From Escherichia phage A7_1, in the sequence record OP795442: a DNA stretch of 64,000 bases, one strand, 5' to 3'. Below the pieces are notes generated by a model. That model saw nothing but the letters and a program-made list of their open reading frames with translations. It had not been told where the DNA came from and ran no database searches. How positions within the stretch are numbered: position 1 is the first letter of the stretch; each line of letters begins with the position of its first letter. The position numbers were made by a program, and so were the translations under genes. Below are positions 34,199 to 40,859 of this stretch, one piece after another.

Positions 34199-34410
34199 TA
34201 AATGACCTCCTCTTTAAGAATCTCACGATGATCTGCGCTGTACCATCCTTTCATCGTATTAACTACACCAACAGCCTCGCCGTATGTTTCAAATTTCGAT
34301 TCTTCATGTGGGCCAATACGGACAGTTACCCAAAACAAGTTAAATACTTTACGATGAACTTCGTAATGCGTTGATTCACCTTTCCGAACTTTAACGATCC
34401 GAACTTTCAT
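34198..34410 (-). CDS. hypothetical protein
   Basis: ATG 34410 after GGAGGG. Confidence 0.5.
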   Translation of the reverse strand: MKVRIVKVRKGESTHYEVHRKVFNLFWVTVRIGPHEESKFETYGEAVGVVNTMKGWYSADHREILKEEVI

Positions 34411-34606
34411 TATACCACCCTCCAAAAGTCATAAATGCTTGATCAACCATATCTTTCCACTCAGGGTAGAGAGCACAAATCATGATGTAGACCTCTTCAT
34501 CAATGTCTTCACACTCCTCCATTTCCAAATACTCTACCACAGGTATGGGCAGAAGGCAATTTATTTCTTTACCCCTGAATTTCAGACCCTTAACTAATTT
34601 TAGCAT
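34391..34606 (-). CDS. hypothetical acidic protein (ALYPE motif)
   Basis: 71 aa, SD AAGGA. Confidence 0.5.
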   Translation of the reverse strand: MLKLVKGLKFRGKEINCLLPIPVVEYLEMEECEDIDEEVYIMICALYPEWKDMVDQAFMTFGGWYNESSDR

Positions 34607-34607
34607 A

Positions 34608-34847
34608 TCAATCCTTAATCACGTAGAATCCTGATTCGTTCATCAGGACAAATGACTTGCCGAAGAAATCCTTACGATTATCCAAAACAAGGTAGAATCT
34701 TCGCTCAGACGAGAGGTGATGTGGGTCAGCCATATAGCTTACCCTCGCCGTCATGCCCTTATTCTTCCCTCTTGTAATCCTTACCCTTGTACCATTCTCA
34801 TATTTAATATCCACCGAACCTCCATCGCAACTCTTTATGAATCTCAT
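34608..34847 (-). CDS. hypothetical protein
   Basis: 79 aa ORF. Confidence 0.5.
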   Translation of the reverse strand: MRFIKSCDGGSVDIKYENGTRVRITRGKNKGMTARVSYMADPHHLSSERRFYLVLDNRKDFFGKSFVLMNESGFYVIKD

Positions 34848-35307
34848 CCAACCCTGGTTTCAGTTTTGGAAGATCTCTTATAAACTCAGGATAGAGGACA
34901 TTAACGAAGTCAATCTCATCATCTGTGGGTTTTTGAATATCTTCGAAATACTCGTCAAGATTGAATATCTGCCAATCCTTACACCCTGCCTTTCGGACAC
35001 CCATGAAGATTTCATTGTTACAGGTAGCCATCCAGGAGATCCTAGATCCTTTACCATTCGCATTCGGCAATGTTGAAACACAGAAGCGTGGTACTTCCTG
35101 AACCTTAAAACCCTCGTCATAGTATCCACGACCACGTTGAAATTTAAACTTGGTCTTTCCCACTCTTTGACTAATCTTCATATCTCGGCGAAAGCTGTGG
35201 TCCCCCGTATAGATCAGTTGACGAAGACACTGAGTATATCTGATCTTTTTCCAATTCCAATCTCGAATGAGTATTTCATAGACTTCCTTAAATGCTTCAT
35301 ACGCCAT
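34804..35307 (-). CDS. hypothetical protein (C-terminal PTDDEIDFVNVLYPE motif)
   Basis: 167 aa, SD AAGGAA. Confidence 0.55.
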   Translation of the reverse strand: MAYEAFKEVYEILIRDWNWKKIRYTQCLRQLIYTGDHSFRRDMKISQRVGKTKFKFQRGRGYYDEGFKVQEVPRFCVSTLPNANGKGSRISWMATCNNEIFMGVRKAGCKDWQIFNLDEYFEDIQKPTDDEIDFVNVLYPEFIRDLPKLKPGLDEIHKELRWRFGGY

Positions 35308-35536
35308 CGGAGGATTCCTTATCTAGAGCACCAACAATCTCGAACTTTGCTACGCCTAAAACAACCACATGACCCAAGGATTGTACACCTGTCCACGGAG
35401 TACCATTCCTCTTAGGTCGCTTACCAGTTACATCGCAGAAATCATTCCGCATTTCTGTTGCATCAAACAACTCGCCTTTCGGAAAAACATCTTTGAAGTC
35501 AGCGATCACGTTAAGACATTTCAGTTTCATATTCAA
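35297..35536 (-). CDS. hypothetical protein
   Basis: 79 aa, SD AGGAG. Confidence 0.5.
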   Translation of the reverse strand: MNMKLKCLNVIADFKDVFPKGELFDATEMRNDFCDVTGKRPKRNGTPWTGVQSLGHVVVLGVAKFEIVGALDKESSDGV

Positions 35537-35855
35537 ACACTCCTCTCTCTAATCTTTGTTTGGCAAGTAACTCCCTTTGTGCTCTAAGTGGCATCCTGAA
35601 AAATATCACAACATTCTCCAAATCTGCCGCCCGTTTTTTAAGCTCTTTGGTGAATTTACCTTCCCGCTTAATTGCATCGTATATCTCTCTATACTCATAT
35701 TCGATAGAGTTGTCTTCAAATATCCGGTTGGCGACCATATTATCAATCTCCATACCGATAGCTTCAAAGCTATACCAGTCTACATGTTCTTCTGTAACAG
35801 GACCTCTTTCTTTGTACACTTGTCCAGTTATTTCATTAACTACGATCGTTGTCAT
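35511..35855 (-). CDS. hypothetical protein, FFRMP family
   Basis: ATG 35855 after AAGGAGA; paralogue of next gene. Confidence 0.5.
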   Translation of the reverse strand: MTTIVVNEITGQVYKERGPVTEEHVDWYSFEAIGMEIDNMVANRIFEDNSIEYEYREIYDAIKREGKFTKELKKRAADLENVVIFFRMPLRAQRELLAKQRLERGVFEYETEMS

Positions 35856-36180
35856 TGGAGTATCTCCTTGCATTATACGGCATCCTGAAAAAGTTTAAAA
35901 GGTTGTAGATAGCAGCAACCCTCTCTCTTACCTTTTCGTCAGAGAAACAATCAGGACCTTCGCTGCAAAGTTTAAAATCTATATCTTCCCACTCAGCGAC
36001 CACAGATTCGTCTTCGAAAACTCCCTTTTCAAACATCATCCGAATCTCCATCTCCATACCCTTGAAGATTGTAAAAGTAACATCTTCAGGATCAAGGTAT
36101 GATACATTGTCTATAAAGAGGCCCCTTTCGGGATAAATGACCATATGCAAAATAATCCTCCTGTGTCCAATATAATCCAC
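35836..36180 (-). CDS. hypothetical protein, FFRMP family
   Basis: 114 aa; shares PERG..GMEI..FED..FFRMP pattern with 35511..35855. Confidence 0.5.
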   Translation of the reverse strand: MDYIGHRRIILHMVIYPERGLFIDNVSYLDPEDVTFTIFKGMEMEIRMMFEKGVFEDESVVAEWEDIDFKLCSEGPDCFSDEKVRERVAAIYNLLNFFRMPYNARRYSNDNDRS

Positions 36181-36268
36181 CCAGAAGCGATTTTGACGAG
36201 GTTTTCTTAATATAATGATAAATCACCTTACCTCGTCGTAGACCTCGTTAGAATCGTTCTGAGAGCGT

Positions 36269-39113: not shown

Positions 39114-39214
39114 ATTATGAAAAAATACAACAGCGAAGATCGGTCATGAACACTATGTTGTTAATTTTTACAACAAGACTCCAAAAAAGTATTTAAATAA
39201 CTTAAATCGATTTT

Positions 39215-39255
39215 AATACATAGAAAATACCTATGGACCAGATCTGACCCATAGG
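39215..39255 (-). terminator. hairpin terminator
   Basis: CCTATGG..CCATAGG stem with palindromic loop + T-rich tail. Confidence 0.45.
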
Positions 39256-39275
39256 GTATACCTTAATGTGAAATT

Positions 39276-39854
39276 TTATTCATTTCCTCGATATTTTTGA
39301 ATCGCGATCGAAGTCCTTGGTTCAGCCAGGCCAGTTCCGTATGCATACCATTTACCAGTGAGTGTTTTTCGAGCACCGTAGGACCCAATCTCCATATCGT
39401 CACAATAAACATCGTAACCGATCGGAGTCTTAATTAAAAAGAGTACGTCACGAGGAATCCCTAAGAGGGTAAACATCGATATGGCATCTTTTGCGATCTC
39501 GTGAGAAATCTTCTCTGCATTCTTTTTACTACTGGCACTTCTAAACAGTTCCATCTTTAAGAAGATATTGAAATGAATATCATCAAGAACCATCTCATCA
39601 CGAAAGCATGGGGTCACAGCCATCCAACTGCCATCTTCCAACTTCCCCTCTTTGTCGAGTTGAAGGAATGATTGCTCTGCGGAAGCTACTGCGTATTTCC
39701 CGTTCTGGACAATGCGAAGATCAGTAACATCTTCGGGGCATGTATGGTCCATAGCATCATCATCCACATAGCTTGGGACAACCTTATCATTGAAACCTTT
39801 ACATTTCCACCAACTATGAGCATCAATAAACAATGTGAAGTCAATGTTTGACAT
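39276..39854 (-). CDS. hypothetical protein with class-II aaRS motif-2-like TPCFRDE
   Basis: ATG 39854; function not assigned. Confidence 0.5.
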   Translation of the reverse strand: MSNIDFTLFIDAHSWWKCKGFNDKVVPSYVDDDAMDHTCPEDVTDLRIVQNGKYAVASAEQSFLQLDKEGKLEDGSWMAVTPCFRDEMVLDDIHFNIFLKMELFRSASSKKNAEKISHEIAKDAISMFTLLGIPRDVLFLIKTPIGYDVYCDDMEIGSYGARKTLTGKWYAYGTGLAEPRTSIAIQKYRGNE

Positions 39855-39855
39855 T

Positions 39856-40359
39856 TTAGCCTCGCTTACCATTCTGGAATGCACGTTTAGTGATTTTTGA
39901 CATAACCATCAGGTCTTCCAGTGAAGTGCTCGGATGATGCTTATTCAAGTAGGCTTCCACAGCACCAACCAGATCAGAAAGCTCTACCAACTCCATGATC
40001 TTGCATTTTTGTTTGGCTGCATCCTTAAGTTCATCAAGTTCTTCTTGAATCTTAGTGATCTCTCCAAGTTCTCCACGAGGGAAAGTATCCAGATGATAAC
40101 CTGGTTTTTGTTCTTCGATCTCTTCATGTCCGACAACACGAAATTTTCCGGCAGCGAAACGCCAAACACCTTCAAAATACACAATGTAATGTTCCGACTC
40201 TACAATGAAGATAGTGTCGAAATTTTTAAATTTGAAAAATCCTTCAACAAGATTATCTTCTGTACTGAAACTTCCTAAGAAGTTGAGTTCTTGCTCCGTA
40301 TGAAATTCGATAACCATATTTTCGTTCTGGAGTTTCGTCAGCAATTTTAAAATTTTCAT
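39856..40359 (-). CDS. hypothetical protein (weak MazG-like C-terminal helix)
   Basis: ATG 40359 after AAGAGGAGAG; track N-terminal extension rejected. Confidence 0.5.
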   Translation of the reverse strand: MKILKLLTKLQNENMVIEFHTEQELNFLGSFSTEDNLVEGFFKFKNFDTIFIVESEHYIVYFEGVWRFAAGKFRVVGHEEIEEQKPGYHLDTFPRGELGEITKIQEELDELKDAAKQKCKIMELVELSDLVGAVEAYLNKHHPSTSLEDLMVMSKITKRAFQNGKRG

Positions 40360-40370
40360 TTTCTCTCCTC

Positions 40371-40859
40371 TTATGGGCAACACCGTGGAGATCTTCCACA
40401 GAAGAATTGCCAATTGGTTTCTGAATCTTTGTGGTTTACAAAACCTATCCTTCCGCACCCTTTCCCACTACAAACCGCTTCACGAGGATGATAGTCTATA
40501 CTGCAAGAGTGGGGATGATCAAATGCCTCCTGTATTTCAACACAGAGTCTACTTAACCAAGCGAACATTTTTGGCATAGAAGCTTCAAGGAGTTTAAGTT
40601 CATCGACCGTAGGTTTGTCTTTCTCCATGAAGAAGTCATTTATCTCGGAAAACAAAATCACGTTTTGAACTATACCGCTGCTTACCTTGTAAGAGAACTC
40701 CTCAGTAAGTCTCACAGTAACTTCCTCTATCAATTCTTTTTCATTATCTTGATCTTTTGCTAATCTTTCTTCAATCCATCGGATAACGAAGAATCTTTCT
40801 CTCTGAACATCCATGTTCAAAGTATTGATTATTTTTTCATAGATTAGGTTTCCTTCCAT
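40371..40859 (-). CDS. hypothetical protein with C-terminal Cys cluster (PTVDELKLLEASMP motif)
   Basis: 162 aa ORF. Confidence 0.5.
   Translation of the reverse strand: MEGNLIYEKIINTLNMDVQRERFFVIRWIEERLAKDQDNEKELIEEVTVRLTEEFSYKVSSGIVQNVILFSEINDFFMEKDKPTVDELKLLEASMPKMFAWLSRLCVEIQEAFDHPHSCSIDYHPREAVCSGKGCGRIGFVNHKDSETNWQFFCGRSPRCCP

What the first reader, a model, noticed from the sequence alone, without database searches (positions are those of the whole stretch)
34391..40859. Neighbouring small proteins share a C-terminal PTD(D/E)E(L/I)D(L/F)..AL(Y/F)PE motif
At least four adjacent minus-strand genes (34804..35307, 37590..38045, 38042..38563, 40371..40859) carry a near-identical short acidic motif (PTDDEIDFVNVLYPE, PTDILEDEVEMFEALFPE, PTDEELDLFTALY, PTVDELKLLEASMP) on otherwise dissimilar proteins; two more (34391, 36513) carry the ..ALYPE/..ALFPE core. 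Modular proteins sharing a short linear motif suggest docking onto one common partner. The LDLF core loosely resembles beta-clamp-binding peptides, but that is speculation.
Basis: partly seen in the sequence, partly recalled or inferred. Interest (0 to 1): 0.65.

Follow-up and report, generated by a model that had tools for sequence, protein, structure and literature searches.

The report
Phage gene family sharing a helical module
Ten genes of this E. coli phage, eight in one cluster, share a folded 35-residue two-helix module found only in this phage lineage, so it marks an expanded gene family of unknown function, not a loose docking peptide.

Summary
The window is a Septuagintavirus (rV5-related E. 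coli phage). Ten ORFs, not six, carry (E/D)(Y/F)F-(E)D-x3-PT-x-EE-h-x-h-h-E-x-L-Y-(P/G)(E/D) followed by a second helix. Eight lie at 34391..40859 on the minus strand. Two lie outside the finding, at 8813..9631 (+) and 62750..63418 (-). A motif pattern written after seeing the copies matches 8 times against 0.02 in shuffles. Conservation is at protein level, not DNA level. The motif survives in Certrevirus orthologues that are about 35% identical, and it is absent from rV5. A profile search of 1.84 billion representative proteins found only 14 matches, all close copies or apparent orthologues of the window's own proteins. One metagenomic phage contig carries 13 tandem ~100-aa genes that share only this module. 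AlphaFold2 places the motif in a confident helix, tight turn, helix hairpin at the end of an alpha/beta domain. That domain has no convincing relative in the PDB, Pfam, NCBIfam or PADLOC. The positions conserved across families look like helix caps, prolines and core hydrophobics. I read it as the conserved core of a tandemly duplicated, fast-diverging family of probably non-virion proteins. It is not a disordered linear motif, and the beta-clamp idea is not supported. A shared partner or oligomerisation role is not excluded. Function is unknown.

The parts
34391..34606 (-). g34391, 71 aa; module at aa 25-62 (nt 34421..34534): EYLEMEECEDIDEEVYIMICALYPEW. Little more than the module itself.
   Evidence: paralogue of g37232 (phmmer E 1.5e-4); not recovered in the leave-one-out test (E 0.87)
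34804..35307 (-). g34804, 167 aa (subfamily S0, phrog_12307); module aa 118-150 (nt 34858..34956): EYFEDIQKPTDDEIDFVNVLYPEF
   Evidence: E 2.2e-4 when left out; full-length paralogue of g37590, hhalign 99.1%
36513..36821 (-). g36513, 102 aa (subfamily S5); module aa 23-57 (nt 36651..36755): RYFTSGESYEGRLEDWNLFAALFPER
   Evidence: paralogue of g36983, E 2e-9; CR9 orthologue of this family against g34804, E 5e-5
36983..37222 (-). g36983, 79 aa (subfamily S5); module aa 20-54 (nt 37061..37165): EYFTSQTTEGRTEDWKFYESVHPEK.
37232..37606 (-). g37232, 124 aa (subfamily S4); module aa 78-112 (nt 37271..37375): DFFADPMNIEKEEVLLLEAANPKW.
   Evidence: E 0.11 when left out; S1-S4 hhalign 96%, 45 columns
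37590..38045 (-). g37590, 151 aa (subfamily S2, phrog_12686); module aa 99-132 (nt 37650..37751): EYFLDPTDILEDEVEMFEALFPEI
   Evidence: E 7e-8 when left out; AF2: helix 110-119, then FPE, then helix 121-146; pLDDT 88-90 over residues 101-120, lower in the second helix
38042..38563 (-). g38042, 173 aa (subfamily S3, phrog_12009); module aa 113-149 (nt 38117..38227): GLFENPTHPTDEELDLFTALYGDDD; C-terminal tail DEDIPF
   Evidence: E 2.2e-3; 42 orthologues; F116, L127, D128, F130, L140 invariant; AF2 pLDDT 89.8, pTM 0.83; helices 124-134 and 138-159
40371..40859 (-). g40371, 162 aa (subfamily S1, phrog_12113); module is internal, aa 75-106 (nt 40542..40637): DFFMEKDKPTVDELKLLEASMPKM; followed by an invariant Cys/His cluster HPHSC..C..GC..C..C.P
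   Evidence: (E 4.8e-3)
8813..9631 (+). 272-aa protein (subfamily S9) outside the finding; module at the C-terminus, aa 239-270 (nt 9527..9622): FFEDWLSPTEEEIQLFKAVNGD
   Evidence: (E 1.2e-4 as a non-member); CR3 gp127 keeps it
62750..63418 (-). 222-aa protein (subfamily S11) next to an endonuclease VII-like gene; first half of the module only, aa 179-199 (nt 62822..62884): EEYFENPLEPTHGELLMALAL
   Evidence: (E 7e-3 as a non-member); CR3 gp227 keeps it

Best explanation
The 'motif' is the sequence signature of a small folded module. An aromatic pair (Y/F-F) and a proline-containing loop lead into a ten-residue amphipathic helix that starts with a T/D-x-E-E cap. A Pro or Gly turn follows, then a second, longer helix. 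This hairpin closes an alpha/beta domain made of N-terminal helices, a six-stranded antiparallel sheet and the C-terminal hairpin. The ten genes are members of one multigene family that is restricted to this phage lineage. The family grew by tandem duplication before Septuagintavirus and Certrevirus split, and has since diverged so far that in most pairs only the hairpin is still recognisable. Shown: the family, its significance, its conservation, its narrow distribution and its predicted fold. Inferred: the proteins are non-structural and are likely made early. The hairpin is the constant scaffold, and the variable sheet and N-terminal part gives each copy its own target. This is the layout expected of host-takeover or counter-defence proteins under diversifying pressure. 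What the proteins act on is not known.
For: 1. Ten members in the window. The same ten are the only matches in the whole 145-kb genome of the close relative A5-4.
2. Subfamily profiles match each other over the module: S0-S2 99% over the full length; S0-S3 94%, S0-S1 94%, S1-S4 96% and S0-S4 90% over 30-46 columns.
3. Codons at the motif differ freely at synonymous sites, so selection acts on the protein.
4. Orthologues in CR3, CR9, phiTE and POP15, about 35% identical, keep the module in the same gene order. Within orthologous groups the module is as conserved as the rest of the protein or more so, 0.40-0.65 against 0.18-0.53 pairwise identity.
5. AF2 of g38042 with 42 orthologues gives pLDDT 89.8 and pTM 0.83. 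The motif is helix 124-134, followed by helix 138-159. The g37590 model has the same order of elements, and its most confident residues (101-120) cover the motif.
6. Foldseek links the g38042 model to three proteins whose phage and length match S0/S2 orthologues, at probability 0.77-0.96.
7. The positions conserved across families are F3, Y21, P22, E13, D5, T10 and the hydrophobics at 14, 16, 17, 19, 20 and 21. By helical periodicity these fill about 220 degrees of the helix, leaving positions 11, 15 and 18 exposed.
8. Contig L014 holds 13 tandem genes that share only D.L.PT.EEL.Y.E.LYG. L026 holds about 9 copies.
9. The W70 virion proteome table lists none of these genes. The CB7 text places its virion genes in gene region 1 and names only two others, CB7_55 and CB7_251 (PMC11370258, PMC7344957).
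Against: 1. With the module removed, N-terminal regions show no detectable homology except S0-S2. Module shuffling onto unrelated N-terminal parts is therefore as compatible with the data as deep divergence.
2. Only two members were modelled, and no coordinates were available to me. Burial of the helix is inferred from periodicity, not measured.
3. S5, S9 and S11 join the family with weaker statistics (hhalign 25-60%).
4. Expression timing is inferred from position among small hypothetical genes, not from data.
5. Nothing here shows what any member does.
Confidence: 0.72

Rival explanations
1. Common-partner docking module. The folded hairpin is a constant 'handle' by which ten or more different early proteins attach to one hub, either a host protein conserved across Enterobacterales or a phage protein specific to this lineage. 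The variable part brings a different activity or target to that hub.
For: The constant module plus hypervariable remainder is striking in L014, where the 13 copies share 25% mean column identity and only E81, L82 and Y84 are invariant beyond the initiator Met. The module is the best-conserved block in the S3, S9 and S11 orthologues. Two members, of 71 and 79 aa, are little more than the module. The hosts of phages carrying it span Escherichia, Cronobacter, Pectobacterium, Enterobacter, Klebsiella and Pantoea, which fits a conserved hub.
Against: The positions conserved across families can be explained by helix capping and core packing. Only one partly conserved exposed residue (E18, 27 of 46) would be left for an epitope. 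No candidate partner was identified. No co-occurring gene was tested.
Confidence: 0.2
2. Oligomerisation module. The helical hairpins pair into four-helix bundles, giving homo- or hetero-oligomers among family members.
For: The first helix is amphipathic with a wide hydrophobic arc, and the second helix is 22-26 residues long in the two models. Many co-expressed copies occur in each genome. The smallest members would be marginally stable as monomers.
Against: In the monomer models of g38042 and g37590 the hairpin is already confidently placed within the domain. No multimer prediction could be run.
Confidence: 0.12
3. Beta-clamp-binding or other short linear motif. The E-L-D-L-F core binds the host sliding clamp as an extended peptide.
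For: g38042 (EELDLF) and the 8813 protein (EEIQLF) resemble QL[SD]LF in four and three of the five positions.
Against: Profile position 13, the slot equivalent to the clamp motif's Q, is E in 36, D in 7, G in 2 and V in 1 of 46 non-redundant copies, and never Q. The segment is predicted helical at pLDDT above 90, not disordered. The conserved unit extends 10 residues upstream and 5 or more downstream of that core. In several copies the L-F is F-V, L-L or F-Y.
Confidence: 0.02
4. DNA-level element. A repeated nucleotide signal (promoter, recombination site or homing target) lies inside the genes, and the peptide motif is its by-product.
For: The copies are clustered and share one orientation.
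Against: Codons for the conserved residues vary freely at third positions: CCC/CCG/CCT/CCA, ACA/ACG, GAA/GAG, CTT/CTC/TTA. The motif sits at different places within its genes. It persists in contigs ranging from 32% to 49% GC.
Confidence: 0.01

Closest known systems
PHROG families 12307, 12686, 12009, 12113 (also 12463, 21419, 15823, 12410, 12959), all 'unknown function'
   Same: These are the orthologous groups of the individual window proteins (E 1e-20 to 1e-39). The module alone cross-hits several of them.
   Different: PHROGs treats them as separate families and records no shared module and no function.
Viral multigene families built as variable domain plus constant module, for example poxvirus ankyrin/PRANC (F-box-like) proteins (own knowledge)
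   Same: Many paralogues per genome in tandem arrays, with a conserved C-terminal helical module on divergent remainders.
   Different: No sequence or fold relation. For PRANC the hub (Skp1/cullin) is known. Here no partner is known, and the module is part of the domain core rather than an appended box.
Bacterial beta-clamp-binding motif QL[SD]LF (own knowledge)
   Same: An acidic or polar residue followed by L-x-L-F in a few copies.
   Different: No Q, helical rather than extended, embedded in a folded domain, and the conserved unit is three times longer.
[not shown]
   Same: A mixed alpha/beta domain with 99 aligned residues.
Pfam DUF7675 and DUF1266
   Same: Each gives one weak hit, to a single member, overlapping the module: E 0.008 and 0.01 on the module segments, 0.037 and 0.019 on the full proteins.
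   Different: Both are far below the gathering scores (14-16 bits against 27). One of ten members hits each family.

Membership tests
Beta-clamp-binding motif (QL[SD]LF / QLxLxL) | Glutamine at the first position of the pentapeptide | tested here: not met
   The equivalent profile position (13) is E in 36, D in 7, G in 2 and V in 1 of 46 non-redundant copies. No window copy has Q there.
Beta-clamp-binding motif (QL[SD]LF / QLxLxL) | Lies in a flexible terminus or loop and binds as an extended peptide | tested here: not met
   Predicted alpha-helix 124-134 in g38042 with pLDDT about 93, and helix 110-119 in g37590 with pLDDT 88-90.
Beta-clamp-binding motif (QL[SD]LF / QLxLxL) | Physical binding to DnaN | not testable with these tools
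   No complex prediction or binding assay was available.
Short linear motif (SLiM) in general | 3-10 residues in an intrinsically disordered region, with poorly conserved flanks | tested here: not met
   The conserved unit is 29-37 profile positions. It lies inside a confidently folded domain. The flanking domain is also conserved among orthologues.
Single homologous domain family (paralogues) | Statistically significant profile-profile similarity between subfamilies | tested here: met
   hhalign gives S0-S2 99.1%, S0-S3 94.4%, S0-S1 94.4%, S1-S4 96.2% and S0-S4 90.3%. S5, S9 and S11 are weaker at 25-61%.
Single homologous domain family (paralogues) | Same predicted secondary-structure context in different subfamilies | tested here: met
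   g37590 and g38042 both show N-terminal helices, then 5-6 strands, then the motif helix, a turn and a long helix. Foldseek links the g38042 model to proteins that by phage and length match S0/S2 orthologues, at probability 0.77-0.96. Only two of eight subfamilies were modelled.
Single homologous domain family (paralogues) | Homology over the whole protein, not only the module | tested here: inconclusive
   It holds for S0-S2, and probably S2-S3 (106 columns, 87%). With the module removed there is no signal for any other pair.
Pfam DUF7675 / DUF1266 | Score at or above the family's gathering threshold | tested here: not met
   14.3 and 15.6 bits against cut-offs of 27. One member each.
Virion (structural or injected) proteins | Detected in purified particles | tested here: not met
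   The 28 W70 virion proteins in Table 2 are W70_106-137 (25 of them) and W70_237-239, none with a family PHROG (PMC11370258). For CB7 only the text was read: virion genes lie in gene region 1, plus CB7_55 and CB7_251 (PMC7344957). The 'virion structural protein' label on the PBES 02 orthologue has no support that I could find.

The most novel reading that the evidence does not exclude
The hairpin is a universal docking handle. Ten to thirteen different early proteins per genome use it to plug variable 'heads' into one hub, either a host hub conserved across Enterobacterales or a phage-encoded one. That would be a phage-built adaptor system, with the tandem arrays acting as a diversifying repertoire of host-takeover or counter-defence specificities. 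One member, g38042, additionally carries an SSB-like DEDIPF tail.
Probability: 0.2. Interest if true: 0.75.

Novelty: new member of a known kind. Interest (0 to 1): 0.4.

Why it matters
Large virulent phages carry hundreds of small early genes with no annotation. Here about ten of them in one genome, and 9-13 in two related metagenomic contigs, collapse into one family defined by a compact module that no database describes. That gives a handle for annotation: one profile instead of nine unrelated PHROGs. It also gives a small folded target for structural work, for example the 79-aa g36983. And it gives a clear experimental question: what does the constant hairpin do, and what do the variable parts recognise? 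If the constant part proves to be a docking or assembly handle, the arrays would be a new example of a diversifying effector repertoire in phages. If not, this is one more fast-evolving paralogous family.

Tried and rejected
1. A single-sequence homologue search with g38042 returned only one near-identical protein. Alignment queries were needed.
2. tblastn of the 272-aa protein found only the five Septuagintavirus genomes. Its CR3 counterpart was seen only with the module profile.
5. Profile searches of PDB sequences gave only chance matches, to designed Kelch repeats and a DUF4201 protein.
6. NCBIfam and PADLOC gave nothing.
7. A degenerate DNA pattern for EEL.Y...LYG in IMG/VR returned 11 loci, close to my rough chance estimate of about 7. 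None held a convincing array.
blastn of L014 against isolated phages found nothing.
9. Counting synonymous and non-synonymous changes among the 93-100% identical relatives failed, through gapped alignments and too few substitutions, and I dropped it.
10. The paralogous pair g35511/g35836 looked motif-like by eye (PVTEEHVDWYSFEAIG) but never reached significance with any profile. I do not count it.
11. The same applies to 5072..5443 (E 0.7-2.5), 7521..8162 and 8480..8707.
12. The DNA-element explanation was rejected on codon evidence.

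
Full report
**Identity of the window.** The 6.5-kb interval is 93-96% identical to Escherichia phages A5-4, A73, W70, UPEC06 and LTH01. A5-4, A73 and W70 are among the phages on which the genus Septuagintavirus, subfamily Vequintavirinae, was described (PMC11370258). All genes under the match are annotated 'hypothetical protein', apart from one aaRS-like and one nucleotidyltransferase label.

**Checking the observation.**
- A loose regular expression hits only this region and only in the coding frames.
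- Aligning the copies shows the unit is longer than reported. An (E/D)(Y/F)F element lies 8-10 residues upstream of PT-x-EE, and a second helix follows the P-E.
- A profile iterated over all 1,104 six-frame ORFs of the window converges on ten members. Two of them lie inside the interval but were missed (36983..37222 and 37232..37606). Two lie far outside it (8813..9631 on the plus strand and 62750..63418).
- In the complete genome of A5-4 the same ten are the only matches.
- Leave-one-family-out profiles recover four families at E between 7e-8 and 5e-3. g37232 is marginal. g34391 and the g36513/g36983 pair are not recovered alone, but are linked through orthologues and profile-profile comparison.
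- Residue shuffles give 0.02 matches against 8 observed for a core pattern. That pattern was written after seeing the copies.
- The codons encoding the conserved residues differ freely at third positions, so the constraint is on the protein and not on a DNA signal.

**Conservation and distribution.**
- tblastn with g38042 finds orthologues only in the five Septuagintavirus genomes and in Certrevirus phages (CR3, CR8, CR9, PBES 02, phiTE, POP15 and others) at 33-38% identity.
- Scanning CR3, CR9, phiTE and POP15 with the window profile recovers the module in the positional orthologues of eight window genes, in the same gene order, plus extra copies.
- rV5 itself has no match.
- A profile of the ten window segments, searched exhaustively against 1.84 billion representative proteins, gives only 14 proteins at E of 1e-3 or below. 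Nine are close copies of the window's own proteins and the other five all carry the motif.
- One of those hits (P0014) lies on a 12-kb metagenomic contig of 32% GC, next to ClpP, PhoH and GH108 endolysin genes. That contig holds 13 tandem genes of 95-121 aa. Beyond the initiator Met, their only invariant residues are E, L and Y of D.L.PT.EEL.Y.E.LYG, and the N-terminal two thirds barely align.
- Another contig (L026, 49% GC) has about nine copies.
- The family is therefore old within a Vequintavirinae-related clade, always multi-copy, and partly tandem.

**Relations among the copies.**
- Pairwise and profile-profile comparisons define eight subfamilies.
- S0 (g34804) and S2 (g37590) are full-length paralogues (hhalign 99%).
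- S2-S3 (g38042) align over 106 columns at 87%.
- S0-S3, S0-S1, S1-S4 and S0-S4 reach 90-96%, but only over the 30-46 columns of the module.
- S5, S9 and S11 are weaker (25-61%).
- With the module removed, no N-terminal similarity is detectable except S0-S2. 'Otherwise dissimilar' is therefore true for most pairs and false for some.
- Within orthologous groups the module is as conserved as the rest or more so. In 42 S3 orthologues F116, L127, D128, F130 and L140 are invariant.

**Structure.**
- AF2 of g38042 with 42 orthologues gives pLDDT 89.8 and pTM 0.83. It shows helices 3-18 and 31-45, six strands between 52 and 113, a loop (GLFENPTHPT), helix 124-134 (DEELDLFTALY), a G-D-D turn, helix 138-159, a short strand, and a floppy last three residues.
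- The shallower g37590 model has the same order of elements, and its most confident residues (101-120) cover the motif helix and the loop before it.
- Across 46 non-redundant copies the most informative positions are F3 (4.5 bits), Y21, E1, F/Y2, P22, E13 and D5.
- Read against the models, T10-x-E-E is an N-cap or capping box. P/G22 with E/D23 forms the turn and the cap of the second helix.
- The hydrophobics at 14, 16, 17, 19, 20 and 21 cover about 220 degrees of the helix, leaving a narrow polar stripe at positions 11, 15 and 18. This reading is my inference from periodicity, because I had no coordinates.
- In BFVD the confident matches are two Certrevirus proteins. Weaker ones (probability 0.77-0.96, TM about 0.4) fall on proteins that by phage and length match S0/S2 orthologues, and two more on other Erwinia phage proteins.
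- Pfam, PHROGs (all 'unknown function'), NCBIfam, PADLOC and PDB sequences give no named family.

**Interpretation.**
- The element is not a short linear motif in a disordered tail. It is the conserved helical hairpin of a folded domain.
- The beta-clamp comparison fails on the defining Q, on conformation and on extent.
- The most economical account is a tandemly duplicated, rapidly diverging family in which the hairpin, being the folding core, is the last part to stay recognisable.
- The proteins were not detected in the W70 virion proteome. The CB7 text places its virion genes elsewhere in the genome, apart from two named exceptions.
- They lie among small hypothetical genes on the strand that also carries nucleotide-metabolism and replication genes. 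In the Certrevirus phage CB7 the predicted sigma70-like early promoters are concentrated in such a region of short hypothetical ORFs. I have no expression data for this phage.
- The layout of a constant module and a hypervariable remainder, extreme in L014, fits proteins whose variable part tracks changing targets. That the hairpin also serves as a common docking or oligomerisation surface is not excluded, and it is the most interesting reading left open. I found no positive evidence for it.

**Verdict.** This is a real and statistically solid finding, larger than reported. It is a new, lineage-restricted protein family and module without known relatives or function. Interest is moderate.

Noticed in passing
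window 38042..38062 (-), last residues of g38042: g38042 ends in ...VDEDIPF, almost the E. coli SSB C-terminal hexapeptide DDDIPF that recruits many genome-maintenance proteins (PMC5872125). The last three residues have pLDDT below 50. Only the Septuagintavirus copies have this tail; Certrevirus orthologues end differently. It may be an SSB-tail mimic.
   Followed up: partly
window 40371..40520 (-), C-terminal third of g40371: The pattern HPHSCxIDY...C..GC...G.VN...C....C.P is conserved in all seven orthologues aligned, which looks like a zinc-binding knuckle or ribbon. It also hits two other PHROGs of unknown function on its own.
   Followed up: partly
L014 530..5286 (metagenomic contig ERZ25068665): Thirteen tandem genes of 95-121 aa, on both strands, share only the PT.EEL.Y.E.LYG module. 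They sit next to an integrase-like gene and ClpP, in a phage contig of 32% GC with no match among isolated phages.
   Followed up: partly
window 35511..35873 and 35836..36180 (-): Two adjacent overlapping genes are paralogues of each other (phmmer E 1e-9) and share a C-terminal FFRMP...A.R motif. They lie in the middle of the module-gene cluster but are not detectable members of the family.
   Followed up: partly
window 43310..43630 and 43627..43956 (-): Tandem paralogous small membrane proteins, 41% identical (E 5e-30), share a LIKLRQ.GF motif.
   Followed up: yes
window 39276..45241 (-): A run of RNA- and tRNA-related genes sits between and beside the family members. It includes an RlaP-like nucleotidyltransferase (PF10127, E 6.5e-19), a short fragment labelled seryl- or histidyl-tRNA synthetase in related phage records (only a weak class II aaRS Pfam hit here, E 0.06), a MazG/PRA-PH-like protein and a CCA-adding enzyme.
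   Followed up: no
window 38584..38611, 39230..39255, 45780..45803 (-) and 45748..45775 (-): Three strong terminator-like hairpins on the minus strand (10-12 bp stems followed by T runs). One lies immediately upstream of a near-consensus sigma70-like promoter (TTGACT-16-TATAAT). Two of them bracket the membrane-protein gene 38616..39113, which interrupts the family array.
   Followed up: no
window 31721..32953 (-) and the neighbouring genes downstream: By its sequence repeats, and by position in the A5-4 annotation (three ~1.2-kb genes, A54_119-121), this 410-aa ORF looks like an RCC1-type protein. Three proteins annotated 'regulator of chromosome condensation 1' (W70_237-239) were detected in W70 virions, although by gene number they lie far from the morphogenesis genes. 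I did not test the correspondence.
   Followed up: no
window 7521..8162 (+): This 213-aa protein has a run of nine serines and two EEYF/EKYF...P-E-like stretches (DIEEYFTFFPEW) that resemble a collapsed version of the module. No profile reaches significance on it.
   Followed up: partly
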